Shown piece by piece: positions 9,672-57,625 of a stretch of DNA of 64,000 nt. Position numbers and translations under genes: made by a program. The stretch covers positions 248,001 to 312,000 of the forward strand of contig JAQGDQ010000171.1 in the NCBI GenBank assembly GCA_030141605.1. Reading direction: 5' to 3'. The notes beneath the pieces are model-generated. The model ran no database searches. It worked only from the letters and a program-made list of their open reading frames with translations, and had not been told where the DNA came from. The DNA is from Tubiluchus corallicola. Its lineage: Eukaryota > Animalia > Priapulida. Position 1 is the first letter of the stretch; every line of letters begins with the position of its first letter.

Positions 9672-12600
9672 ATGATAATTCGAGAATTTGCGGCAGCATT
9701 GTTCTGCTGCCTGGTAAGTATCTTTACCATACAGAATATTTAATTGCATTGACTAATCGAGTAACTTACTGACAGGCTGCCTGACTGACACTTTAATCAA
9801 CTTACAGAGCAACCGGCTAACTAACAAAAGAAAAAAGTTGTTGCAGCCTTATAATTTTCAAAGAAGAGCTATTTTATAGTCTGTCATTTTATTAAACGAC
9901 CATTCACCTCACTGGCCAACTGACCGACTAACTGACTGACACTGAGCACGCTATAACTATTTTATACTAATTTGAGTGAAATTGAAAAATAAACAAATAT
10001 TAATGTTGATCGAGTTGCTACAAAAAATTGTTTTCAAATCTAAGCACTAACGAGGCAAAATTTTCCAGGTTGCCAAAACGTCGGGATTCTCTTTTGGCTA
10101 CAGTTCAGGATACGGTGGTGGAGGCTACAGCGGAGCTGGGGGTTATGGTGGGGGAGGTAGTCATGGAGGACATAGTGGAGGGTATGGGGGAGGAGGATAT
10201 GGTGCAGGGGGTTATGGGCTGAGCTATTCAGGTGGATATGGGGGTTATTCTGGAGGGCACGGTGGGGGCTATGGAGGACATGGTGGGGGCCATGGGGGTC
10301 ACGGAGGAGGTCACGGAGGCCATGGAGGATATGGCTATCAGCCCTTGTATTACTATGGCTATCTTCATAAGCACACGACTACGACGCATGCACCGTATGT
10401 ATACTTCAGACGTCACACTGTTCCATACGAGGACCTGTACGAGTCAACGTACACCGACCATTACGTGTTTCACACCCCAAGTCCATGCTACGGATATGGG
10501 TGCAAAAAAGGTGACAGTTACGGGTACGGCGGTAGTGGCGGACATCAAGGCGACTCATACGGTTATGGATCCAGCGGTTATGGCGGTCATGGCCGAACTG
10601 GTTATGGTTCTGATGGGTACGGAGGCTACGGTTCGGACTATGGAGGTCATGGCGGGTATGGCAGGACAGATTATCTTGACGGTTACGGTGATACTGGGTA
10701 CAGCAGCGGAGGAAGCAGTTACGAACACAATTCTGTTAACAGAGGATATGGTCAGAACTCGTACGGCCAAAGCAGCGGATACGGCAAAGAATCTCATTCG
10801 TCTAACAGCTACGAATCAAACGAAATAACAGGTACCTAATTTGACCAAAGATTAAATGCACGACATTTTTTAAACAAACGACGCTAAAACTCTAGAGATT
10901 ATTTTGCATTTATCAGTTTACGAGAGTAATGTAGGAATAAGTACTATACTCGCAACCAACTGTGTGATGACCAGCCGTAAATATTTTAAGTTCAGTTAAC
11001 ATTGGCACAAGCATACCTAGTGCTGCTAAGGATCATAGCACGCAATAAACCTGTCACATTGCTGAGATCAAAGATCAAAGTTACAAATTTCAATGTCAGA
11101 GCTGTAATTTCTATAGCAAACAAAAGATGTGTCCTCAACGAGCTTGAAGGACAAATTAAAGGATCACAGCAAGGTACAAGGTTACTAAATTTCGTGTGTG
11201 TCGAAGACAGGTGATAAAAAATAAACTTATTTTTGGTAAAGGGACCGTTACGTGCTATACCCCGATTGGCCTTGTTTTAGCGATATATACAAAAAATACA
11301 CCGGAACTGTGGATTTTTCAGTCAACAGCCCAGAAAAAATTTGTAGATGTCAGATAGCGGTTATGTCAGAACTGGTTATGGTTCTGATTAGTAGGAAAGC
11401 TACGGCCGAATTGGCCACGCTAAAGAGACAGATTATAAATTTAGGGAAACTCTAACAACTAATAATTAGTTGTACACATTAACGTACAATGTGTCAACCA
11501 AAACTCTAAATGTTTTAGATATCAAAACAACATGCGATGGACATTATAAAACATTACGAATTGATCTGACTTTCAAAAGTGGTTTCTACGGTAAGATATT
11601 CGCGAAAGGCTACTACGGAGTGGAGAGATGCTCGGCCCAAGGTGATGGCTCTTATCATCTTAGTTTCACACTTCCTCTGGATGGATGTGGTACACAAGAA
11701 TCAATTGATGTTGATAGGGTAAGCATTTCACAAACATTTAGAATAAGTTAAATTACTAGATCAAAAATCGTGCGTTTTATACCTTTGTGTGTAATGATAA
11801 GTCACCCTTTTCGAATAAAATAATAGTTTTCGGTTATCTCATTTCATACTTACGAGTCTTCTTATGTTCTCTTTTTGTTACTTGAGCATTTAATGCGGGT
11901 ATAAAATGATTCATAATGTCATAGAGAAATACGCTCTCCGTTCGTTGAGCTTCAGTTTCAACGATTACTTGTCAGGAGTACAACGTTTGTTAGTTTGTTG
12001 TACGCTCTTATATACGTAGTGATCTTTATCCTTCAAAAGGCCAGATTTACCATTATGATGTATTTGCCATTAGTTGTTTCATAACTCATAGATTTCCTTC
12101 CAAAAGTCTCTTCAAGTCTTTTTTAAGTTCAACTTCACCAATAAGGCTTTTAAAAAAATTTCAGTCTTCTGGTTATGGTGGTTATAGTAGTGGATACCAG
12201 CATAAGTACACATACAAGAACACGTTAGTTGTAATGGAACACAGTGGATACGGATACGGTGTTCTTGAAGCAAAGGATCGAGCCTATTCTGTCTACTGTA
12301 CCATTGAGGACAAGAATCAGAACCAGTACCAGCAACCTACAACTCAAAGCTACGGGTATTGTATAATGCCTTAGTTTTCTACCGTGTACAGCTGTGCACA
12401 TGTTGCTCAATAACATTGAGACTATAAACAGTAGGAGCATCAATTTTATTAAACCAAACTTTACTCATTTTTATATTTGCCCTTCGGAGTGTAAATTGAA
12501 GAAAATTTTTACCTGCTTTGTGCGAAGTATTACAAATCTTCAAAGAGTAACACATTTAATTATTTTTTGTGTCTTTTAAGTCATTTAGATTGTGTAAAGA

Positions 12601-23088: not shown

Positions 23089-26000
23089 CTACAGTGATGA
23101 CTCATGATAACTTGCTACCTCATTTCCGTTTTCTGATTGGTTAACATTTCTATCTTCTTCTTCTTTTTCATCACATTTGTTTTCGTCTTTGCTTGGTCTT
23201 TTGCAGCAGGTGAAGCAAGGTATGAGACAAAGTAGCACTGCAGCAGACGTCAAAACAGCTCCAGCTACCACATATGACGTCACAAAGTCCTGGGTGAGGT
23301 CATATATCATGCCTTTAAATTCATAAAAATGGTAACCTCAAACGTTAAAATAAGATCATTATGAGTAGATGAGATTGCTGTCTAAAAAATGTGTTTCGGT
23401 TCAATTTAAATATGTTAAATTACTTTGCAAAAACTATTCAGTTGTAGATCTTTCATTAAAATATATGTTTCAAGCCTGATTTTAAGTAAATTTATAACAT
23501 TATTCAGTTGTTTAAAAGTTATGTTTCAATTCCACTTAAATATGTAAAATTACCTTGAAAATGCTATCATTAAATTAAATTTTATTAACTTTCATTAAAT
23601 TATCTGTCTCAAACCTGATTTTAAGTGGAATTAGTAACATTATTCATTCAATCACTTTTTAACAACGTGTAAGTGCAATGTTAAGGTTCAATGATTTTCA
23701 ATAAAAATTCATCTTATTTCATATCATATCATGCATACATGGTAATCTACGTGCTATACTGCAGCTAGATAGCCATTAAGATACCATGACGCATGATATA
23801 CCTGCTACAGGTGGTCCAATCATCATCGACACACCACGACATAAGCATAACAGACCAAAAGCATTTGTTAGCTTAAGCAATCCAATTGCCTCCACTAATA
23901 TTATAGACGTCAGGCAAATAAATGCAGCTGAAAGGCAACAAAATATATAGACACTGCATGCAAGAGTTTGCTTAACTCCAGCTCGTCAGACACCACAAGC
24001 AGACATAGACTGCATCATAGAGGATAGCTTAAATGATTCCAGTCAGAGCCAAAGCACATACTCTATGAACAGGGCACAGCTTTACCTGCCAAGGGAGGTC
24101 CTACCATAGATGTAGCACCTCGAAACAGACAGAGTAGTCCAAAGGCGTTGGTTAATTTCTCCAGACCCATAAGATTAACAAGAATCACAGACGTCAAGCA
24201 AATGAAGGCAGCTGAAATGTTATTAGTTTTTATGGCATATTTTTGCACCTGCTTCTTTTAAATTATAATATTTAGCACGGCCGGCTGTAGGTAGTTTGAC
24301 GCCCCGGGCATAAAGGTTTTTAGCGCCCCCTACCCCTCCTTCGCACGGTCCCTTTCTCCACCGTCTCAAGCATACCACAGAATTGATTTTTTTATATAAT
24401 ATTATAATAAAATATAACAGTACCTGTGTGCTACGCTTACACATGCATTACAGTTCACTAATTAAGTGTCTGTACCTTTCTGCAGCTGGTCTGAATTGAA
24501 TTTGAAATTGAATTTATCACCCCAATGTACGCTCGGGTCTTCGGCAGCAAGCACACTTCTGCAAATTCTGCTACTCTTGGCTACATTTTCCCTCAACTTT
24601 TTCATCAGAAAAATTTTCAAACCCCAATTCCTTTTTTCACGTATCTATCCATTTCACTAGTTTCATCATCTTCACAACTCTGATCTGGTTGTATCTTCAT
24701 CAGAGATATTTTTAAGATAATTTATGTTTTATTTAATTAAAGTGCTGTGCACTTAAGCAGCAATTGCACATACATTATGTTATTACGTATTCTAAACTTT
24801 AAAATTAAAGAGTTACTTCCAGAATTTGGCGTTCCCACAAATTTGGTGCCCTAAGCAACTCGTAAGCAGTTTGTTTATGATAGAACCGGTACTGATCTTT
24901 AGTAACGTAAGCACAGCCCGTTACTGAAATGACTTTATTTCAGGAGTTTTCACTCCAAGGCCATCAGCTGCAGGTCAAAATGCACAGAGAAATGGTGGCA
25001 TCTTTATAGCTCACATACAATCACTTTGAGATTTAAGGGAACTATATTCACTTTTTTCAGTTAAACATACGTAAATAATCAACCAAACTGTTTTGCTATA
25101 TTTTAATCCTTAATTGAGTCTCTTATCGGTTATCTCGTATATTGTTGACTACTTAAAGGGAAGACAAAGTTATTAAGTACGTCAACAAAAAAAAATTCAC
25201 ACAAAGTTATATTACTTAGCAGTACGCTTACCTGTTTGAAAGACTTACGTAATTAGAAAAGAAAATTCTTAACAATGTAAAATATTCACGCCACCTGGTA
25301 AAACGGCACTGCATTGTCATCCCGTTGTGCACAAAGTTGTTCACCAAAAAACATATTATTGATCTTACTGACAATATAAAGCAATTTAAACTTTTTCATA
25401 ATTTGCGAAAAGTGTGCTACGAATGCTCTGACTATTTTTTCAGACTTCGTACAATGTTCGAAACGACTCACTCTCAAAATCCACACAACGAGTCACGGGA
25501 GTCTAAATTTACAAGTTCTAGACACCCGTTGCTGCCCACGTAAGCTCTGTGCGCAATAAAACAGCATGTAAGTGATATAAAATTTCAAGACGAATAAGCC
25601 TTTTCACACTTCCAGCGATTGATGATGATCATGAAAAGGTCAAAGGTTAAGTGTACCAGACAACGCATTTGTGTACACTTGGGCCAGTTTTAACAGCTAG
25701 CTAGAACCTTATTTAGTTCATTTTTATTATTCCAAAGCAAGATCTTGATAAGTAAATCACACTATGCACAGATTAATGTATAATTAAGCAAAGTTCACGT
25801 AAAACAACTGAAGTTACGGCAGACAGCATTGCTTTACCCACATGTCACGTTACGATTGTAGTTAAGACGCGTTGCTGTGGTATACTTAACCTTTGACATA
25901 CGGGAACTACGCGTGCGCACAATGAAACTGTGAAAATGCTTATTTTAAGTGTTATTTGTGAAGATTGAATTCTTGTGCTTTAGCGTTACTCAGTGTAAAT

Positions 26001-28882
26001 ACTCACCAACAGATGATCCAAACACTGCACAATAGACTGCCAATGACAGGTAAGACGTGTACAGAGGTAAAAACAATGTGGACACGCCACTTATTAGCAA
26101 ACTAATATTGTTCACATAAAGAGCATTAACTCCAGGTCTATCACAGATCCAACCGACAATGACACGGCTTACAGTGTTTGTGATTCCAATGATGGACAGC
26201 AAGTAAGCAGCATCAGTTGCAGGAATACCAAGCTCAATAGCCCTTGAGTTGGTGTACATGAAGGGTATGTAAAATCCTATAAAAGCCAGAATGTTGGCGA
26301 TGCAAATTAATAAAAACACCGGATCTTTTAGCAAGGACAAGTCTAACATTTCCTTAAAGACGCTTCTCATTTCAGGTTCACAGCAGCGTGCCATTAAGCC
26401 ACTTTCACTCAAATCAATAACCGTTCCTTCTTCATCAGCCACACCTGGAATAGCCGTAATGCTAGTAATATATTCCATTTCACTTTTTGCTGCCTTGTAC
26501 TCTGGTAAGTTCATTATGCTACCACTAAAAAATATATCTTTCCTGTACATTGGACGTCTGTACTCTTCTTTTATGTCTTTGCCTGCTAGAGGTTTGTAGC
26601 CATTTGGTCGTAGTAGCTGTGAACCTCTAATATGAACGGTGTGCTCACTCTTCACGCGTTGGAGTAATTTATTCTGAGGTAGCTGCAATGCTTCTTTGTC
26701 TATGGCTGTTGCACTGGTACTCATCCTTCTGACTTCTGTATAGTTATCTGGCACGTCACTTTTGCTGTCCAGTTCGTGGTCACTCGAAATTACTATGTCT
26801 GGAATTGCAGGTCGCTCCCGAGCCACAGTTGACTGATATCCTGAGTCTTCTGTTTCGCGAGAAGAATCCGAAGATTTGCACAGCTCCCCTTCAGTTAACT
26901 CATTACCTGGAGTATTATTACAAAGAAAGGTAGCTCTGTTGTCGTCGTGTATAGTAAATGTTCTTACTCTTTCCATTTTCACTTCGTGCATTCTTTGCAA
27001 TAGTGGTTTTTCTGTCACCTTGATTTTCTTCGCTTTCAACGGTCTCATCAGGGCACCGCATACCATCCCGTTCATCACCAAGCCAGCCACGATCAATGTA
27101 GCACCCTTCCAGTCATACGTGGTCAGTAGAAATTTAGAGAAAGGTGCAAAAACAAACGTCCCTATTCCAGATCCACAGACAGCTAAACCTGTAGCGAATG
27201 CTCTTTTTTCCTCAAAATAATACCCGACACTCACGATTGCAGGCAGGTACATAAATCCAAACGATATTCCTAAAAAGACCAAACGAAATTAAATATCTAT
27301 ATTATTTAGTTATAATAATCTACCTCGTAAACGACACGAGTCCTCAGGTGGATTTTTAATCGTTTAAAAGAGGTTTTCTGACCTAAATTACTGTTAATAA
27401 AGCTTATAATCTGATAATAGGAAACAGTATATAGATATAGATTTAGATTTACTTCTCACAAAAAGCGATGCACATTGAATGATACGAAACAAAAATTATA
27501 AGATAGCATCGCAAAAAACAAATTGCTTACACTATAATGCTTCAATGTGTGTTTAAAGAAAATCTTGTAAGCACAATAATGATAGTGAGATAGTTATTTT
27601 GTAATTTCATATATTTTATGCTTCTAATCTTGCAGTTAAAATGTTAGAAACTCAGTAAAACGAAATTAACCTGCCATAACCCCATACGTCAAAATTAAAA
27701 CAGTGACATTCGGCGAAAAGATGCTAAGAATGAATGAGATTCCTGCCATGACGCTGCCAAATATTGTCACTGGTCGACATCCAAATCTGTTCACCAAGGC
27801 ACTGACTACAGGACCTGTGAAGAACCAAAAGTAGTCTGTAGAAGTAACAGCAGCACGTTTGTAGGAACAATTCCCAAGTTTTTGCATTTGCACAATAAGC
27901 ATTTACTGAATTTTGCATAGTTTGATGAAAAACTGCTCTCACTAAGCAGCGATTATGTTGTATTTGATAATTTTTGTAGGCCTCTACTCCCAACACAATC
28001 GTTTTTCATGCAAAATTAATACGAAATGCATTTGCTCACCTTAACCAAAAAAAAATGAAAAAAGCTTTCAGTAATTACAGTGTTTGCACTGTAACAATGT
28101 ACAGTATCAATTGTGTGAAATATGCTAATGCAGAAAATTTCAACTATCCAGACTCAACACTCTGATATATTATGGCCTCAAAGTCATCTCTTATTTTTAA
28201 GGAGAAATTCCAGTTAAAAGATGAAACGACCTTAATTTCTCTTTGGCTGATCGGTTTGCTTTTCCTGGAACTCAGCACAGCAGAAGGTTCTCTTGGGCTG
28301 TAGCAAGCAGGCGATCAATAAAATAGTGTGTACGATCACGCAAGTGTAAACCAGACTAAGCTACTCACTAGGCTAAGTTGGAGTGCCGGAAAACGGTGTG
28401 TTTTTCTTAATTTTATCCAATTAAATCAATTATAAATGTCAAAAGAAATAGCCGAGATTCTCCTTCATAGAACAGTACCTAATTTGTAATCATTTAGTTA
28501 TGTATGTGTTCATACAGTACCAGAAAAGTAATAGGTCTTATATATTTTAAATGGCGTGGTCCTGTGACAAACTTGTGAAACCAGTAAACATTGAAAACCT
28601 GTCAAACGTACCTGCAGTAAGATAACAGCCAGCAAGCAGTGATCCGACCATTGACGTTTTAGCAGCGCTTTCATTGAAGTACTCCTTAAATTCGACCAGC
28701 CAAACGCCATAGCAGTAGGTGATACCATCAACGAGAAAATTTAATATAAAACTTGCGAAGACAATCATCCAACCCCAGCTGCCATCTGGAGGCTGAGGAA
28801 TAAGATACTCCGGATCGAGTCCCTCCAATTCCGGATCAAAGTCGTCATCGCGTGCTGGTCTGTACTCGTCGCGCTGGCGCAT
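23089..28882 (-). CDS. SLC16 / monocarboxylate-transporter family MFS protein (MCT12/14-like invertebrate type, ~675 aa with one of the two alternative exons)
   Basis: Exons 28612-28882, 27671-27814, 26007-27269, [24086-24211 or 23802-23927], 23089-23312; all phase-1 GT-AG junctions. SLC16 motifs [49 protein letters not shown], large central loop with [10 protein letters not shown], and GPPLAG-MIYD. An acceptor at 28903-28904 indicates a further upstream exon. Confidence 0.93.
23400..23650. repeat. Degenerate ~120-bp tandem duplication in the last SLC16 intron
   Basis: TTAAATATGT.AAATTAC ... CTTTCATTAAA ... CCTGATTTTAAGT ... TAACATTATTCA occurs twice (~23400-23508 and ~23526-23649). Confidence 0.7.
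23802..23927 (-). CDS. Duplicated alternative exon (copy B) of the SLC16 gene, encoding the TM10-TM11 region
   Basis: 126 nt, flanked by tttcag| and |gtatat, same phase as exon 24086-24211. Translates to [42 protein letters not shown], 31/42 aa identical to copy A. Not in the ORF track. Confidence 0.85.
24276..24894. mobile_element. hAT-type MITE in an SLC16 intron
   Basis: Ends CACGGCCGG...CCGGTACTG with GCGCCC-type subterminal motifs; 8-bp TSD ATATTTAG (24268-24275) / ATCTTTAG (24895-24902). Confidence 0.7.
25593..25944. mobile_element. MITE family A, copy 2 (in an SLC16 intron)
   Basis: Colinear with 7743-8112 over its full length, same orientation, same TIRs with a few mismatches. Confidence 0.85.
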
Positions 28883-47300: not shown

Positions 47301-47668
47301 GGGTACAGTCTGCAGTCTTAAGTTTAGACTGGGCAAAGTTGGAAAGGGTACAGTCTGTAGTCTTAAGTTTAGACTGGGTACAGACGGAAAAGGTACAGTC
47401 TGCAGTCTTAACTTTAGACTGGGTACAGACGGAAAAGGTACAGTCTGCAGTCTTCAGATGGAATAGGTACATCTGCAGTCGTAAATTTGGACTGGGCACA
47501 GATGGAAAGTGTACAGTCTGTAGTCTTAAGTTTAGACTGGGTACAGACGGAAAAGGTACAGTCTGCAGTCTTAAGTTTAATCTGGATACAGATGGAAAGT
47601 GTACAGTCTACAGTCCTAAGTTTAGACAGGGTACCAATGGAAAAGGTACAGTTTGAAGTCTTAAGTTT
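47301..47668. repeat. 45-bp minisatellite (~8 units) overlapping the DEG/ENaC stop codon
   Basis: Unit GGTACAGTCTGCAGTCTTAAGTTTAGACTGGGTACAGACGGAAAA, seen as 15-aa repeats in the spurious ORFs. Confidence 0.9.
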
Positions 47669-49737
47669 CCTGTAACGGTGGTGAACGCAAGAACTCCATT
47701 TCTGAGGCGCCATATTTGTCATTATTTTTCTCTCCTTGATTCATCACTTTCTTGTTTCTGGCCCGCCGTAATCCCTGCAGCAAAAGCATAACTACATCTG
47801 CGAGAAATTCAATAATCTCGTAAATTGCCAAAACAGACATGCCAATATACAGTCCCAGCAGGCCACCAATGTCACCTGCCAGATCTGCTTCCTTGTAGGT
47901 GATTTCCTCATGGACTTCCTCTACCATTGATGTCTCAAACATGACATGGAGCCAAGCCAGTTCGTTTACGCCATCCACAAGTGACTTTAGAGAATAGTTG
48001 TTTTGTTTTTCATCCGTCCATGCACTGTAGCGCATCAAGTACCCGGTTATATTTGTGGTATTGTGGTACTCTCTGACAAAATTTTTCCATTTCCTTGTTC
48101 GATTATGGTCTATCGTGTGACTGGACTCCCACGAAGTATGATACCTAAAAGCATTTTACAGAATAGATTTATAAGTTAATTTGTGAGTTAATTTGTGAGG
48201 TTCAATTTAACGGGATTTGCAAAAATTGCTAATGTCGACGTTAAATTAATATCAATGGTTTTTTTTCATGTAAGTACATGTATCATGCAATGTAGCAGTA
48301 TCAATTTTTGCAGTCAATTAAATTTAAAGCCTGTATTTTCAAGTAGTTCAGAGCCTGATTATACATTCTATATATAGAAGAAGTCTGACTACCTTATTTA
48401 GCTCGCAATTTTATGTTATAATACAGAATATGAAGGAAGTACATAAAATAAATAGATAGCTGAACGAAGAAATAAATAAACACCTAAAATAACAGATAAG
48501 CAAATAAACAAACAAGCAATTCCAATGCGGAATAACTTCGCGTTATGGTGCGTCTTGAATGACCAAACGTGAATGCAACTAAACCTTTACCTAGTTTGAT
48601 TACATGGTGCAGGACAGTTACACTCATCTTCTTCAATTTCAATCATCATAAAACAATCATCATGATCCGATCCAAGTAGAGTTTCACACATTGGAGGTTG
48701 ATCATCGATTGTCCAACCAGCCTCTTGTAACAGTTTGTCTGTCAGTGGGATGCTGTTGCTGCTGCAGTTACATTTCTGAATCAACTTTTTTTGTTCGCAA
48801 GTCTCCCTGCAAGTCTCAGTCCCGTATTTGGTGCCAAACGTTTCCTTAAACACATCTCTAAGTTGGCCTTTGTTCGCTTCTTCTTCTTCTATACAATGAT
48901 TTTTCGCACGCACTTTGTACACGTCTGTTCGCTGTATTTTTGCAGTGTTCAAGGTTCCAGCACGCACGAAGAATGGCTTGACACCAACATAACTGTAGCC
49001 AGGTGGAGTAATGATGACATTGAATCCTGGCTGAGGAGTATTTAATGGCATGTATTCTTCCAGGCTTGCATTCAATAAAAAAGTAAAACCGATCTTTGCC
49101 ATGGAGCGGTTCACTCTCATTCCCGCCCGTCGTGCCCCATCTGGAGTCCTTCTCGAAGGATTGAAGGTAAAACAGTTACCCTTATCTAGCTGTATGTTAG
49201 TCGTCTCAAAATGTTCAGCTAATTCACAACCTCTTAATTCTGATTTCTGTTGAGGCAACTTACACAACAATATAGTATCTTCTAACTGGTGACCGATCCT
49301 TAATCGCTGAGTTTGGTTCAATTTAGCTGCAAATTCTGAATTGAAGGCTTCATAGTTAACTAATCCCAAGCGGTAAAATCGTCAGATACATTATAAAATT
49401 CCGGCATAAATTTTTTGTACTCGCTAAAGCGCATAGAATTTTTGTTGCAAATGGTCACAGATGGTGCAGCAATTGTTTGGCTACTTAGTCGAAATCTAGC
49501 AGCAGTCTTTACAGGACGTGAGAGATACTTTTTTAACTGTATTCCACTCTGAACGCAGAACAATGATGTAGCCGCTCCTATGAGAGCAATCCAAATGCAT
49601 TTTCTCACCAAACTTTTTGAACGTTTTATATTACCTATGCCATGAGTAGCTGTATTGTCTGCTAGTGTAGCTGCTAATGTCTTGATGGACGATTCTTCTC
49701 CACTTTCAATCTCAGCATTTTCGTAATTTTCTTCCAT
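47661..49737 (-). pseudogene. DEG/ENaC (amiloride-sensitive sodium channel family) gene with one frameshift; pseudogene, null allele or assembly indel
   Basis: Exon 48591-49737 plus exon 47661-48144 (GT-AG, phase 2). Motifs: pre-TM1 NTATHG, TM1 KCIWIALI, PSVTICNKN, GHQLEDTILLC, GNCFTFN, Cys-rich thumb ending CNCPAPC, and TM2 LAGDIGGLLGLYIGMSVLAIYEIIE. The frame breaks between ORF 49360-49737 and ORF 48587-49369; adding one base restores a 543-aa protein. Confidence 0.8.
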
Positions 49738-52700
49738 ACCTGTCCAAAAGAAGCTTTTACAAAAGACGACAGAAGAGATTTACGTCTTGTAACTTACCAC
49801 AAAATTTAAATGCAAAAGGGTCCAACCGTTATTTTTTGACAAAATAAACCGAATTAGCACTTTGCGTTTCTTGTAAATTGCCTTCTAAGTTCATTCCTCT
49901 AAAGGAATCTTGGATCGGCCTTCCTGGTTAACTGACCTTCCAAGTTAACTGCAAATTTTCGGACATGAACTTTTATTAAAATTTCCTGTAAAAGGTTGTT
50001 GCGGCCATGGCGTTCTCTTCTTTACAAGACAACAGTGTGTTGAAACTTTAAAATCCCTAAATTTCCAAACCACTTTTTGTGACAGCACTATCTTTACTAT
50101 TCTGCACTCTCTGCAGAAACATCAACACTAGAAGACAATGAAGATGAACGTTCGAATGATTACAGCCGGATTTGCTGAAGCTGTCGACTTTTGTAGTTTG
50201 TATACGCATCATTACGATGACATAAAATTTCCCACGAGACCATACTTTTAATCTGATAAATTTGTCTCTGATCATTAGGCAAAATTGCTTTATAAATAAA
50301 TAAGCATGTAAAAGAATGAAAATTGCCATGCACCAATGTATTGCATTAAGCTAAATGGATTCCATTGGAACCATTTTTCGTTGTTGGACATCGCTAATTA
50401 CAGTGGTAGGTATACAGCATTTCCCAATGGCATCAATATCGTATTGATTTGCATGCATCTGAACTACGAAGCCCATTGATGATCAGCAGATAAATTTGAA
50501 GATTATATACTGCGTTCAAATCTCTAGTCAAAGCAAAAGACACAATAGTGACAAGTTGATTTATCTGGTTTAATAGCTTATATCGCAACACACACTTATT
50601 GCAAAAAAATTACAAAATTACAAAATACAATTACAATTTACTGTGGTTCAATGAATCATTTGCATAAAATATAATGAGCATTCCTTTCCTAAATATCTAC
50701 AAATTGCTATTGATAATGAATTCCAAAGCTCTATTGTTTAAATTTTGTATTTTATGGATGACAAAAAAGAGGAACCTTGTAAGTATAAACTTGCAAATGC
50801 TGACTGCGTGACGCGCGCGCTTTTTAACAAGTTACTTAAAATGACTGTTATCCGGACAATCTCTAAACACAGTTTATGTTTGTGGCATGAAAGGTCATGC
50901 ATTTGGATGATCGTTAACACAAGCAGGATAAATGAGAACAATGATAGATCCTGCATGAACCATGCTAGATTGGTCAGGTGACTCAGGTTTAGGAAGAAGA
51001 CCTTTATGTACCAGTAGTTTTATTTCCACATCATTTTATGTTGATAGTGGTGATTAATCTTTCATTTTAAAACACATGTTCACATAAATGGGCACATTGA
51101 AGGTATCTCTGCACAGTCTCTGTATAAACTTCACCTGTTCTTGATTTATCAGAAAGTTACCATGCTGCCACAATGGGTGATCGAACAAAAAAACGATCGA
51201 AACCGGAAACCTGGCCAAGTTCCTCCTGATGTCACAGACTGTAATGTTGTTTAGTGTGGTTAACTGGTGTGTGTTCCCTTGATAACGCTTTTCACGCAGT
51301 GTATCCTAGCAGGATCCTCTTCAAGAGCTAAAGGGTTTTCATTTGGCGAAGAAGAATTCGACGTATTTTGCTGATTCGGGATATTTTAATCTGAATGAGT
51401 GAACGAAAAGGCAGGATATATTCTATAAGGTTAATTTGTTTGTTAGTGAAATTCAGACATAGTAACAGCCTTCTTTAAACGCAGTTTTATTTCTTATAAG
51501 TTCCTCATTAACTTTTTGTTGATTAGATGCAGATGCACTTACCACACAAACGCATTAAACACAAAAAAAGAAAAACATCCTGATGAAATTTACACATTCT
51601 AATTTAAAAACGTGTTCTAAATAAGTAGACTCTGGTTCATACTTTTAAAAACTATTAGTATTACTTACCATATTCTGCTATGCAATATTAAGTTATGCTA
51701 CTTTAGATTTCTTTAGAATCCGAAGAAAAATAGTTAAAAATAGATAAATTTGCACAGAACTGGGCGCATTTAGCTAACGCCTCTCAGGTATAGAACCAAA
51801 TGGGATTATTCTCTATCTGTGTACTTACACTACAGGTCAATAGCCTGTCTGAAAAATTAGAGTAACACGGTTCGGAAGTAGCCTAATTTTACCCTGATTT
51901 TTATTAGTATAAATTTTAATAAAGGTGTGGCCATGGTATTGAGATTTGCACCTGTCGGTAAACTTTAGATCGCTGATCATAAAAATACTTTAAAAACTAA
52001 AAACAAGGCAGAAAACCTTTGATAAGTGAACAAAAACACGTACGTGACACTAAAATGCACAAATGTATTTACAATTTTTACAACAGTACAATATGCTATA
52101 CCCAGCAGTTACAGTTAAATTAATGCCTGCGTAGTGAAGCAGAAATTGGCTCTGAAAAAAAAATTAAGGATGACTGCTGTATCACACAACCACAACTATA
52201 TATGAAACAAAATCAAGAAAAAACGCCAAAATAGTGAAAGCAGGACATTCGTTTCCTTGTAACATCACCTGAAGGAGATGTTCATTAAAACCTTTAACAT
52301 TAAAGTTTAAAGCTATAATTTGTTTCTGCACCTATATTTTTGATTTGCCCTGACACATTTGCCTCCAACAGGGTATGCTTGGCCATCACTGATTGTGTGT
52401 TTGTTATGATTTTCAATATTATTAAAGGAAATAAAGATATGATTTTTTTACTTACTTACATTAATTTTCAGTTTTAGGCTATCACAAAAGTTCAAAGACA
52501 CGCACTTGTAACTTAGTAATGTTTTATGCGTATTGTGCTTGATTAGTATAGTAAAAATATATGAGCATTTACTTATCCAGGATAAGAAAGAAAACAGTTG
52601 ACTAGCATTATTGCACGTTTACTTTCTTAGGTGACAGACCTACTGCTAATGTTGAATTGTTGAGCCAGAATTGGAATTTAGCCAATTACCATCGACAATA

Positions 52701-53001: not shown

Positions 53002-54672
53002 TCAGACAATCTCATCTATATTGCCTGCCATGATGTCCTGATAAACATCAATGAACATATAATCAGATAATGATTCGTAGCCACTAACAGCTTCCAGCAT
53101 TTGCTGTAACTGTTGGCGCAGTTGCTGAAAACTTGGTCTGTCATCGGGATTTTCACGCCAACAAACTTCAATCAGTTCATACACCTCTTCTGAGCACCCC
53201 GGAGGACACTCCATACGGTATCCATTTCTGATTGCTTCAATGACCTCAACAGCTGTTTTGTGTTCCGGGTAGGGCGTGACCCCAAGAGTTACGATCTCCC
53301 AGAAGAGTACCCCAAATGACCAGACATCTGATTCTATGGAATATTTGTTAAACTGCAAAGATTCGGGTGCCATCCAACGAACTGGCAAACGCTTTTGTAA
53401 CCTCTTCACATTAGACCGGTACTTGACAACGTCGTCTTCTCTTCCAAATTTACTAATCTTACACTTAAGGTCCGCAGAGACAAGAATACTCCTTGCTGCC
53501 AAATCGCGACACAGGCATTTATGCAGGGCTAGATGTTCAAGCCCTGACACAATGTCGGAAGCAAATGACACTGCCATTCTAACAGTCAAGTGAGCAAGAT
53601 TTGAATACTGGTCCGTATTCCCTGCTTCTTTCAAAAGAAAAGATTTTAAATCTCCGTTCTCCATGTAATCTTTAATCACTACTGTACCTTTTTCTGCATC
53701 ATTTATTTTTGTGATAAAACCTAATAAATTTTCATGTGCAGGAATGTCTTTTAAGATCTCCAATTCCTTTTCAAGATACGAAGTAATAAAATGATTGCGC
53801 TTTTCCTTTATTGTGTATTTAGCTGTGACTATTTGCTGCTCTCTAATTCTTTCTGGCTCAGTATTGTGCAAGATAGCTTTGTACACGTGATGATACGTGC
53901 CTTCTCCAAGTTTTTCTAGGTAACTTATTTTGTTTTTGTTCACGCATTCATCCGGTCGAGGAGGTAGTGCAGGAACATCGGATACCCGTGGCGGTAGTGG
54001 TGTAACATAAGGAAGGTCGTACACAACTTCTGTTCTCTGTTCTTGGTTGATGGCTACCACACCAGCCATTCTTCCAGGTTCAGTAGCTGATGCAGGCGTG
54101 ATTGTCACTTTGTTGTAGTCTGGTGTTCCGCAGCATACTAACCTACAACATAATGCAGCTGATACAATTGAGGCAATAAGTTCCAGTATACCCAAAATAG
54201 GATATATTATGTGAACACGGCGTGCAATGTTTTCTTCCCAGCAATCTGTTTCGTAACAGCTGGAATGTAATGCTATGATAGAACCTCCAACTATCATTAT
54301 GCAACTTGTTATTGCAGAAAGGATGCACAGTACCATGAAACTGATCCAGATGGGAAGTACGGGCTTTTTCTTTCCTATACATCCCACGATTCCTGTTACT
54401 GTGAACATGATCCCTGCCCATATGCCAATTAGGGCACCATTATAAGAAACCACTATAGAAAGTACAATAACTTCCAGAAGAAGGGCAATTGAACCAAGAA
54501 CCAATTGGACTACTGCTGCTGCAAATGCCACTTTCTTGGTTGTTATATTTCCTGCTGTACGTCTCTCTTGCTCTTGCTGCTGTGTGAATGTCATATTTTG
54601 TACAGACACTTGTTCTGGTACATAATTCAGCGTGTTGCCTATTTTTGCTGGAACCATCGCCATAGCTGGCAT
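53002..54672 (-). CDS. MS4A/CD20-like tetraspan fused to a tyrosine-kinase-fold pseudokinase (556 aa, single coding exon)
   Basis: aa ~46-181: four hydrophobic segments with MS4A signatures ([25 protein letters not shown], extracellular C-x4-[16 protein letters not shown]). aa ~249-527: TK fold ([65 protein letters not shown]). The ORF is uninterrupted. Confidence 0.9.
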
Positions 54673-57130
54673 GTAATTTCAACAAACTGAATTTCCTCCT
54701 AGATTCTAAACATAAAACTTTGTGAAGAGTGAATATCGAGTGACACTGCAACAAAACAAGAAAAATATCATTTATCTAATAACAAACCGGTTCATTTTCT
54801 CTACTGCCAGAATTTTCGGCCAGACGCATGTGCTATGTACGTACTTCACACTCGTACCCTTAAGCTTCCGTAAAGTGACAGTTTAGCAGCTTTAGCTTCG
54901 TCTTTCAAGTAAACGTTTTTCATATTAAAATAAGCCATAGCGAACCCTTAAATGGGCGCAGTACAGTTTTTAGTTTTTAAGAAAGACACGTATTGCCCAT
55001 AATTGATCATTACTTTCTAAACCAATTAAAATAAAAGACGCAACTTTATCTATCCTAGTCGACATGGAGTCCTGTATTTCATCTTATCACAGAGCAATAT
55101 CGCGTCATTTGGTAACACCAATAACTGCGCATATTAGTTGCAGATACTTTTAAAATTAAAAACTCATTTTTGTGCATTATGACATAAACATTTATCACGT
55201 TGTCACCCAATCACTAGTAGATTAAACTTACAGCAACGCACTTTCCTTGTAGTACACATTCGTGTCCGCCAGTTCTACCTATTATATTTCGCAGAACATA
55301 CGTCCAAGCATTACCGTACGAACGATCGCAGACTCGTCATGTGTTTAGTTATCTCGCTATGGTTCACACAATGCCGGCTTTTCTTACGCTTAAGTTGCTA
55401 CTTCTTGGAAAATTCCACTTCGGACTCAGTCTAGCGTGTAGAACATAAATAACTGCTGGCACAGATGTATTAGTTGGCGCAGCTGCCCTAAGGCACACGT
55501 TTCTGAGGACGTATCTGCACTGTGCCACGGTGCCTACAACCGTATAATTACATGATTTTTTCGATATTTTGTGAAGCTCACAGTCTCACTTATGTATGTT
55601 ACAATGCATTATAGTAACACGGAACATTTGCGAACGTATTAATTTTAAGCTGGTATAACGAAGTATCTCATTTAGGCCACCAACTCACATATAATCTAAT
55701 CTGCCTCAGTCTCGCCAAGTGCTAAGGCGCTAAGGCATAATTTCATTAAAGCTGTAACTGACAGAAGTGTAAAATTGATGATTGTTGAATATCGAAAAGC
55801 GCTGCTTAATATGCTTGGCATACCATATAACTCGCATTGTACAATGACGATAACGATTGCTGAAACTTCCTCCTTTGAATTTTTAATACCTAAGAGAAGT
55901 GTAAATCGGTCAAGAAGTACTGTCTTAAAAACACTGTCACTTTTAAACATGAATTCTACTTGTACAACCCTAAGAGTGAATAAGATATTTATTGTACAAA
56001 ATATTTCCAATTTTAATAACACTGTTTCTAATCATAATATATTTGCTTATGAGCTGTACTGGCTTACTGAAGGGGAAAACCACCTACCTGGCTTCTTGTA
56101 TGATGAAATTCGTCAGATTTTGTATCATATGATAACTAACTAATGTAAATATTCTTGTAAATTATTACTAACAAATATTGATGAATTGTAATATGTAATA
56201 AGTGCGAAATAAATCTTATACATATAATAAATAAAAAAAATGAATTGTTAATGTGTGCCTGATCACATCTTCATACTAACTATAGGGCATTTCTACTCTA
56301 CAGTACGACTGCTCGACGATATTACTTCAGAAATCGAGAGGTACAAAGGGTTGTAGACCACATCTGTGGTTGTAGACTTTTTTGCTCAGCAGAATAAAGC
56401 TGCCGTGCTTTTTGAAAGAAACTGTAACTCTCAACAATTGCAGTTACAAGTCGTGTCGTATTTACTTGTTATTTTATTATTATTTATTAGGCACAAAAGT
56501 ATACATTAAGATTAGTAGACAATAAGATTGTATAACTACGAGTCATACGAAGGTTACAGCCATACGACTGTGTGGCCATAGATGACGCAAGGAACTAAAT
56601 TTTGGAACAGGTCACTGCCTGTTAATCTATACACGTACCCCATAGACAAGAAACCAGTAGTAGCAATTCAAAATGTTTCCTATAGTCAGAGTAATACTCA
56701 TTAATGAAAGTACGAGTACATCAATTTTAAATTCTGAACAGCAGATACAGAGATTCTGTTTATTTTACCAACTGGGGCTCTTTTCTCGTATGTATTGTAA
56801 TGATTTCTTTTTCAGCGCCAAATTTTCAGCTTCAAAGATGGTTTTCCTACACTTAAGAAGGGACCATTTCAACCTTTGTAGTTTTCAATACAAAATTGGA
56901 CTCGGGCACTTCAGTACCAGCGCTATTAAATTAATGATGTACATTTTAAACATCGTTGAAGAGCAGTAGCTAACATTTTACACACTGATTTGACGTGAAC
57001 AAAAAAGCAAAAATACTAATTAATGGGTTCAGTAGACACATTTAATAAATAAATTCTGTTAACAAATTTAAGTCACTTTAAGTCACTCATTAGGACAAAA
57101 TGATTTGCTCAGTTAAAGTTTTGTAATATC

Positions 57131-57625
57131 CATTGGCGGCTCGTGTATACGCACTGTGGAACTACAGTACCCCCTATTTTCACTCAATATTATAAAAACT
57201 ATTCAACATAAGAGGTCTTTTTTCTTTAGTTCTTCTTTATACTTCTACGAAACTAGAGCACGTGAGGGTAGCACTGTCTGCTTCACAGCCCAGCACAGTG
57301 GGTTTTTGGTTGCTGTGCGCATGTGTGCATAACACGCTGTACGCTGCACTCGTTCACACAGTTTGTCAGTTGTTACGTGCTTAAAACCATATACAGGCAT
57401 ATTCTTGAACTATGGCAATTTAGGCTTTTCGTAAGCAAATAATTTTTTTTTTGTTTAGGGTTTTAAGTTTATGCATAAATTTTTGTATGTTTGTTTGTTT
57501 AAAATTACAATTATAAATAAAACATTAAATTACGTATGTTTGTTTCGTTTTACACAGTATTAAAACAATGGCTAAAATTTTTCTGAAGCAGCACCCCCAC
57601 TACTTTTAACTACGGGTCACCACTG
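57131..57625. mobile_element. hAT-type MITE
   Basis: Degenerate TIRs CATTGGCGGCTCGT...ACGGGTCACCACTG; 8-bp TSD GTAATATC (57123-57130) / GTCATATC (57626-57633). Confidence 0.7.

What the first reader, a model, noticed from the sequence alone, without database searches (positions are those of the whole stretch)
53002..53079. ITAM-like three-tyrosine motif at the C-terminus of the MS4A-pseudokinase
Seen: tail G-Y532ESL-SDY538MFIDV-Y544QDI fits YxxL-x8-YxxI, with a third Tyr (YMFI) in the spacer, and the protein ends in a possible PDZ ligand (EIV). Established: the ITAM consensus is YxxL/I-x6-8-YxxL/I and binds tandem-SH2 kinases (Syk/ZAP70; Shark binds the Draper ITAM in insects). The vertebrate MS4A member FcERI-beta also has a C-terminal ITAM with an extra middle tyrosine. 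Inference: a catalytically dead receptor signalling through Src-family phosphorylation and Syk/Shark recruitment, convergent on or related to FcERI-beta logic. Tyr-rich tails are common in RTKs, so chance spacing is possible.
Basis: partly seen in the sequence, partly recalled or inferred. Interest (0 to 1): 0.72.

Follow-up and report, generated by a model that had tools for sequence, protein, structure and literature searches.

The report
Four-pass pseudokinase with inherited docking tail
The immune-receptor-like tyrosine motif is really in the sequence, but both true relatives of this protein lack it, so it is likely a variant of the ordinary docking tail of a receptor kinase; the unusual part is the protein itself, a four-pass membrane domain fused to a likely dead tyrosine kinase.

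Summary
The motif is real. The 556-aa ORF (54672..53002, minus) ends YxxL-x8-YxxI with a middle Tyr (Y532, Y538, Y544). The only two proteins found with the same build (Priapulus caudatus XP_014667023, XP_014662088) keep only the first YxxL/I and the terminal E-x-hydrophobic end; neither has an ITAM. The acidic residue of the full consensus is missing. Counted from the kinase RPxF motif, the tyrosines sit at 17/23/29; Tie2 has 17/23/28, and Cad96Ca-like kinases have Y17 in 38 of 51 and Y28/29 in 39 of 51. So the motif belongs to the kinase tail and is not descended from the FcERI-beta ITAM. Whether Y538/Y544 were retained or re-gained is open (p about 0.12-0.24). Best reading: a likely catalytically impaired scaffold, phosphorylated in trans, docking single-SH2, SH3 and PDZ proteins. 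Syk/Shark binding is possible but unsupported. The novelty is the build: an MS4A-fold four-helix domain (top fold match an FcERI chain, Z 17.6) on a tyrosine pseudokinase, not found in my literature searches. In passing, 11 of 51 Cad96Ca-like tails fit the full ITAM consensus.

The parts
53002..54672 (-). Single-exon ORF, 556 aa: four-pass MS4A-fold domain + juxtamembrane linker + tyrosine pseudokinase + 41-aa tail
   Evidence: same build in P0010 and P0154
54130..54537 (-). Four-helix MS4A/CD20-like membrane domain (about aa 46-181; hydrophobic peaks 57-75, 81-99, 110-128, 158-176), followed by a Cys cluster (CCRLVCCG) shared by 3 of 3
   Evidence: hydropathy; Pfam CD20 21.4 bits, below cut-off 27.9, homologue P0154 48.6 bits; fold match 8K7T_B Z 17.6, rmsd 2.6, 142 aligned; Cys cluster
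54007..54021 (-). Juxtamembrane YDLPY (Y218, Y222); candidate SH2 docking site (inferred)
   Evidence: YxxPY in P0010, CxxPY in P0154
53956..53973 (-). PALPPR, class II SH3-ligand-like motif (motif class recalled)
   Evidence: PxLPxR in 3 of 3 four-pass pseudokinases; 5 of 150 representatives overall, a count that includes P0010
53107..53925 (-). Tyrosine-kinase-fold domain (aa 250-522), likely pseudokinase: HRDxxxxN reads CRDLAARS (53511..53488), DFG reads KFG (53451..53443); catalytic Asp390 kept
   Evidence: model pLDDT 88, best fold matches FGFR kinases Z 32-33
53068..53079 (-). Y532-E-S-L: conserved first tail tyrosine (family position 17)
   Evidence: YxxI/L in 2 of 2 homologues; Y17 in 38 of 51 family tails; in Tie2
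53032..53061 (-). Y538-M-F-I and Y544-Q-D-I: second and third tyrosines, found in this protein only among the four pseudokinases; complete the ITAM-like core
53005..53013 (-). Terminal E-I-V, likely PDZ ligand (E at -2, hydrophobic end)
   Evidence: same pattern in 4 of 4 pseudokinases and 37 of 49 short family tails

Best explanation
The three tyrosines lie in the post-kinase tail at the positions used by Tie2 and Cad96Ca-like receptor kinases and are likely a variant of that inherited docking tail, on a four-pass membrane protein whose likely inactive kinase domain would act as a scaffold phosphorylated by a partner kinase. Shown: the build, the loss of both Mg-binding residues in all four members of the clade, the conservation of Y532xxL, the PxLPxR motif and the terminal E-x-hydrophobic end, and the absence of Y538/Y544 in the homologues. 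Inferred: an Ig-type receptor pseudokinase swapped its ectodomain for an MS4A-fold domain; an SH3/SH2 kinase of the Src family or an active RTK partner binds the linker and phosphorylates the tail; pY532 docks a single-SH2 protein; the end binds a PDZ scaffold; Y538 and Y544 add lineage-specific sites and the ITAM spacing is a by-product.
For: Positions from RPxF: query 17/23/29, Tie2 17/23/28. In 51 family tails: Y17 38, Y28/29 39, both 32, aromatic at 23 in 26 (F 23, Y 3). Y544 has 12 residues after it, the commonest distance for a distal Tyr in the 46 short family tails. Anchored profile including Y532xxL beats shuffles (87 and 51 of 3000 reach the score). 0 of 2 homologues have the core; both keep the first YxxL/I and the end. 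Tree: query + Priapulus pair 98/93, with Ig-type P0044 98/98. Reference titles seen describe the Tie2 tail as a multifunctional docking site for p85 and Dok-R (titles only).
Against: Past Y532xxL the tail is not significantly family-like: 727 and 345 of 3000 shuffles reach its score, and an unanchored tail HMM did not separate it from shuffles (455 of 1000). The sister sequences lack both distal tyrosines, so retention needs two losses and re-gain is as parsimonious. The third Tyr is one residue off the family mode. The exact parent clade is unresolved (forks 82-91; open) and the four pseudokinases have long branches. Only two true homologues, from one species. No expression, phosphorylation or binding data.
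Confidence: 0.6

Rival explanations
1. A working ITAM in this lineage: Src-family phosphorylation of Y532 and Y544 would recruit Syk/Shark by tandem SH2, with Y538 tuning the output, converging on FcERI-beta logic.
For: Strict core present, 1.1% in whole-tail shuffles; all three tyrosines are YxxL/I; the membrane domain's top fold match is an FcERI chain; Src42A-Draper-Shark shows the pathway exists in protostomes (PMC4503800 passages); 13 of 51 family tails carry the strict core, so the tail is pre-adapted.
Against: Absent in 2 of 2 homologues and in P0044; no D/E three residues before Y532, which the consensus in PMC11663944 requires; 6% by chance given the first YxxL; the Y532 segment is predicted ordered against the kinase.
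Confidence: 0.15
2. Y532 is kept mainly for folding (it would pack on the kinase C-lobe) and Y538/Y544 are drift; signalling would run through the linker (YDLPY, PALPPR) and the PDZ end.
For: Model residues around Y532 have pLDDT 89 with a beta-bridge at S534, the rest of the tail 63-71; linker motifs are conserved in 3 of 3 whereas the distal tail is not; position 17 is Cys, Gly or Phe in 11 of 51 family tails.
Against: Tyr rather than Phe is kept at 17 in 4 of 4 pseudokinases and 38 of 51 relatives; the equivalent tails of Tie2 and FGFR1 are known phospho-docking sites (established knowledge; titles).
Confidence: 0.15
3. The domain is not dead but a Mg-independent kinase, like CASK (recalled), and would phosphorylate its own tail.
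For: The catalytic Asp is kept in 4 of 4; the losses are exactly the two Mg ligands (Asn to Ser in 4 of 4; DFG Asp to Asn or Lys); an activation-segment Tyr (Y418) is kept in 3 of 3 four-pass members.
Against: Glycine loop degenerate (third Gly lost in 3 of 3, first Gly lost in both Priapulus proteins); beta-3 Lys out of register or ambiguous in the query.
Confidence: 0.1

Closest known systems
Tie2 (TEK) C-terminal tail
   Same: Three tyrosines right after the kinase at 17/23/28 versus 17/23/29 here; similar tail length. Tie1 has Phe at 23.
   Different: Tie2 is an active single-pass RTK with a large ectodomain; its tail is not a strict ITAM; residues between the tyrosines are unlike; no orthology shown.
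Cad96Ca/Stitcher-like invertebrate RTKs
   Same: Nearest Atlas cluster (0.95); kinase falls among them in the quick tree; Y17, F/Y23, Y28/29 tail and E-x-hydrophobic end.
   Different: They are single-pass, cadherin or Ig ectodomain, intact HRD/DFG. Their distal YxN (Grb2/Drk-type, recalled) is YQD here.
FcERI-beta (MS4A2)
   Different: No kinase domain; its ITAM follows TM4 closely (recalled) whereas this motif lies behind a kinase; about 16% identity; Zuccolo 2010 (PMC2826416 passages) concluded invertebrates lack true MS4A genes.
Draper-Src42A-Shark
   Same: Protostome example of SFK-ITAM-Syk signalling (PMC4503800).
   Different: Single-pass engulfment receptor without kinase domain; no sequence link tested.
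Receptor pseudokinases HER3, PTK7/Otk, RYK, ROR (recalled)
   Same: Impaired kinase fold used as scaffold, tail phosphorylated in trans.
   Different: All single-pass; different lesions; none has an MS4A-fold domain.
Priapulus caudatus XP_014667023.1 and XP_014662088.1 (annotated 'Ret-like')
   Same: Whole build, 35-37% identity, same pseudokinase marks, linker motifs and end.
   Different: No second or third tail tyrosine at ITAM spacing; tails 43 aa, not 41.

Membership tests
ITAM | YxxL/I-x6-8-YxxL/I core | tested here: met
ITAM | Acidic residue three before the first Tyr, (D/E)xxYxxL | tested here: not met
   Val at that place; consensus as printed in PMC11663944
ITAM | Both tyrosines and spacing conserved in homologues | tested here: not met
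   0 of 2 full-architecture homologues; 0 of 1 sister pseudokinase. Only one species sampled.
ITAM | Match to an ITAM profile | tested here: inconclusive
   No ITAM family listed by Pfam at E up to 10; filters drop weak short matches
ITAM | Motif free and accessible to a tandem SH2 | tested here: inconclusive
   Y532 segment predicted ordered, distal tail pLDDT 63-71
ITAM | Double phosphorylation by an SFK and binding of Syk/ZAP70/Shark | not testable with these tools
   needs phosphopeptide or cell assay
MS4A/CD20-like domain | Four membrane helices with the MS4A fold | tested here: met
   hydropathy; FcERI chains rank 1-2 of 48,161 (Z 17.6, 16.1), dystrophin-complex chains 15.4/15.0, uroplakin 14.9, CD20 11.7; model from only 3 sequences, pLDDT mostly 60-79 there
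MS4A/CD20-like domain | Pfam CD20 above the curated cut-off | tested here: inconclusive
   query 21.4 and P0010 27.7 below 27.9; P0154 48.6 above
Vertebrate MS4A gene family | Orthology to vertebrate MS4A genes | not tested
   no PDB sequence hit at E 10 for the domain alone; no tree built
Tyrosine pseudokinase | Loss of DFG Asp and catalytic-loop Asn | tested here: met
   KFG and AARS; same pair of losses in 4 proteins against 193 with N+DFG
Tyrosine pseudokinase | Loss of beta-3 Lys or catalytic Asp | tested here: inconclusive
   Asp390 kept; Lys285 one place off
Tyrosine pseudokinase | No phosphotransfer | not testable with these tools
   needs assay
Cad96Ca/Tie-like RTK | Kinase domain groups with the clade | tested here: inconclusive
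   inside a fork of SH-aLRT 90 in the quick tree; unresolved in the careful 26-row tree
Cad96Ca/Tie-like RTK | Short tail with Y17xx-hydrophobic and E-x-hydrophobic end | tested here: met
Cad96Ca/Tie-like RTK | Single pass with cadherin/Ig ectodomain | tested here: not met
   four helices, no such domain

The most novel reading that the evidence does not exclude
A single-chain invertebrate immunoreceptor: an FcERI-beta-fold four-pass domain joined to a dead Cad96Ca-type kinase whose tail is a working ITAM for Shark/Syk; and, more widely, the Cad96Ca/Stitcher tail (full ITAM consensus in 11 of 51 sampled, from arthropods, amphioxus and a snail) is an overlooked ancient ITAM borne on receptor tyrosine kinases.
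Probability: 0.15. Interest if true: 0.8.

Novelty: new variant of a known kind. Interest (0 to 1): 0.4.

Why it matters
The ITAM claim itself drops: it is not a conserved feature of this protein family. Two things remain. First, receptor tyrosine kinases are single-pass as a rule (established knowledge); this protein and two Priapulus proteins, both filed as 'Ret-like', put a tyrosine pseudokinase on an MS4A-fold four-pass domain, which gives a testable link between an invertebrate CD20-like domain and phosphotyrosine signalling. Second, many Cad96Ca/Stitcher tails fit the full ITAM consensus; if they bind Shark, a wound-healing RTK would feed the same Src-ITAM-Syk axis as Draper, which can be tested directly in Drosophila.

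Tried and rejected
No genome is held for the window, so paralogues, Syk/Shark presence and taxon could not be checked. Search with the membrane domain alone: 0 of 4403 candidates scored, although two homologues exist, so sensitivity is low. Search for shorter fragments: 12 hits of 2118 candidates, all annotated or scoring as ordinary kinase pieces; longer fused forms were not searched there, but one search had no length limit. Sequencing runs: no RNA holder listed; contigs of run X1 cover parts of the gene, no variant was shown within 53002-53079 but 62 rows were hidden: no verdict on expression or variation; a closer look at the tail in that run is lacking. Full-length fold from 3 sequences was poor in the kinase (mean pLDDT 46.6); its Foldseek search only returned kinases. 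First tail script had a wrong anchor and gave nothing. Unanchored tail HMM did not discriminate. Y532 = FGFR1 Y766 rejected as exact: model residue 297 (Y532) aligns to 764, two before (that 766 is the PLC-gamma site is recalled). Frameshift artefact in the tail rejected. Atlas search of the membrane domain alone did not complete. Earlier findings: 3 look-ups, nothing. Literature blanks: MS4A+kinase domain+invertebrate+ITAM 0; Priapulus+CD20+tyrosine kinase 0; Cad96Ca+ITAM 0; Stitcher+Y762 0; Tie2+Y1108+Y1113 0. The library lacks most subscription papers; the primary Stitcher and Tie2 papers were not held.

Full report
Observation. The finding lies at the 3' end of a single-exon ORF at 54672..53002 on the minus strand, 556 aa. 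A strict YxxL/I-x6-8-YxxL/I core arises in 1.1% of shuffles of the 41-aa tail and in 6.0% when the first YxxL is held fixed. Outside tails the core occurs 7 times in 133,856 aa of 150 related proteins.

The protein. Pfam gives a tyrosine kinase domain at aa 250-522 and a sub-threshold CD20 match at 53-141. Hydropathy shows four membrane helices. A model built from three sequences is usable only in this domain; against 48,161 chains its best matches are two FcERI chains (Z 17.6, rmsd 2.6, 142 aligned; Z 16.1), then dystrophin-complex chains (15.4, 15.0) and uroplakin (14.9), with CD20 at 11.7. I take the FcERI chain to be the beta subunit from its size. Helical bundles score high in general, so this supports the fold and not orthology. 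The kinase reads CRDLAARS and KFG: the catalytic Asp is kept and both Mg-binding residues are lost; the glycine loop is worn and the beta-3 Lys is ambiguous.

Homologues. A full search of 1.84 billion representatives listed, among its best 150, one protein matching over the whole length, Priapulus caudatus XP_014667023.1. A profile search added XP_014662088.1, which passes the Pfam CD20 cut-off. A profile of the membrane domain found no further case among the proteins held. Both share the pseudokinase marks, a Cys cluster after TM4, a juxtamembrane xxxPY motif and PxLPxR. An unnamed Ig-domain receptor, P0044, has the same two lesions and is their sister (98/98; query plus Priapulus pair 98/93, 26 rows chosen by me from the 77). 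This suggests an ectodomain swap; long branches are a caveat. The organism of the window is not established; a priapulid or relative is a guess.

Test of the ITAM. One Priapulus tail has Tyr at 17 and 33 with no second YxxL/I, the other only at 17, and P0044 only at 17 beyond the helix. What all keep is Y17-x-x-hydrophobic and the end E-x-hydrophobic. The consensus printed in PMC11663944 (passages) needs D/E three residues before the first Tyr; the query has Val.

Where the motif comes from. Counting from the RPxF motif, the query has Tyr at 17, 23 and 29, and Tie2 in PDB 1FVR at 17, 23 and 28. From the 61-row fork of the quick tree I removed the 4 pseudokinases, 3 duplicates and 3 rows without a usable tail, leaving 51. 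Of these 38 have Y17, 39 have Y28 or Y29, 32 have both, 26 have Phe or Tyr at 23, 13 have the strict core, and 37 of 49 short tails end E-x-hydrophobic. Rows are not independent: several are amphioxus or arthropod kin. An anchored profile supports homology of the stretch that includes Y532xxL (87 and 51 of 3000 shuffles reach the score) but not of the part after it (727 and 345 of 3000), and an unanchored HMM gave no signal (455 of 1000). So the first Tyr and the end are inherited; Y538 and Y544 sit at family positions but may be retained or re-gained. Either way the motif is part of a kinase tail, about 350 residues after TM4, and cannot be the FcERI-beta ITAM by descent.

Structure of the tail. 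With 77 sequences the kinase plus tail folds at mean pLDDT 88; the block holding Y532 scores 89 with a beta-bridge two residues on, the rest of the tail 63-71. Best fold matches are FGFR kinases, Z 32-33, with Y532 two residues before FGFR1 766. Part of the conservation of Y532 may be structural.

Mechanism. Most likely (0.6) a scaffold: the four-pass domain sets location or partner (unknown ligand), the impaired kinase and PxLPxR linker hold an Src-family kinase or active RTK, which phosphorylates the tail; pY532 binds a single-SH2 protein and the end binds a PDZ protein. All binding steps are inferred. Rivals: true lineage-specific ITAM (0.15), structural Tyr with signalling from the linker (0.15), Mg-independent active kinase (0.1).

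Literature. I saw passages only: PMC4503800 for Src42A-Draper-Shark, PMC2826416 for the claim that invertebrates lack MS4A genes, PMC11663944, PMC11245153 and PMC8616247 for Tie tail sites, largely through reference titles, PMC6982143 and PMC6522504 for mentions of Stitcher, PMC11241275 with nothing of use. No supplements were read. Searches for the fusion and for a Cad96Ca ITAM found 0 papers; the library lacks most subscription journals. That Stitcher docks Drk and Src kinases on a tail tyrosine is recalled; the paper was not held.

Verdict. Observation confirmed, interpretation partly supported. The ITAM is not a conserved feature and is best read as a variant RTK docking tail. The four-pass pseudokinase build is real, shared with Priapulus, and apparently undescribed. 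Interest 0.40.

Noticed in passing
P0053, P0082, P0092, P0104, P0108, P0126, P0131, P0140, P0142, P0149, P0155 (tails): 11 of 51 Cad96Ca-like RTK tails match the full ITAM consensus including the upstream D/E, better than the query does; no paper with Cad96Ca and ITAM was found.
   Followed up: partly
P0044 (unnamed Logan protein, 897 aa): Ig-domain single-pass receptor with the same two pseudokinase lesions and a similar end; sister to the four-pass pseudokinases. Points to an ectodomain swap.
   Followed up: partly
window 53956-54021 (minus): Juxtamembrane YDLPY and PALPPR are better conserved among the three four-pass proteins than the ITAM-like motif.
   Followed up: partly
window 47661-49779 (minus): DEG/ENaC (ASC family) gene 3 kb downstream, in three large pieces; the first two overlap in different frames near 49360-49381 with no fitting intron seen by eye, so a frameshift, pseudogene or assembly error.
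   Followed up: partly
window 25990-27288 (minus): Large exon of an MFS transporter (Pfam MFS_1).
   Followed up: no
window 10051-10839 (plus): Gly/Tyr/His-rich low-complexity ORF of 262 aa, cuticle- or eggshell-like by composition; no Pfam match.
   Followed up: no
window 54746-54765 (minus): Pyrimidine tract and AG about 75 nt before the ATG suggest an intron in the 5' UTR; the coding region itself has no intron.
   Followed up: no
window 55700-56300 and 57130-57500: High contig depth in run X1 marks repeated elements upstream of the gene.
   Followed up: no
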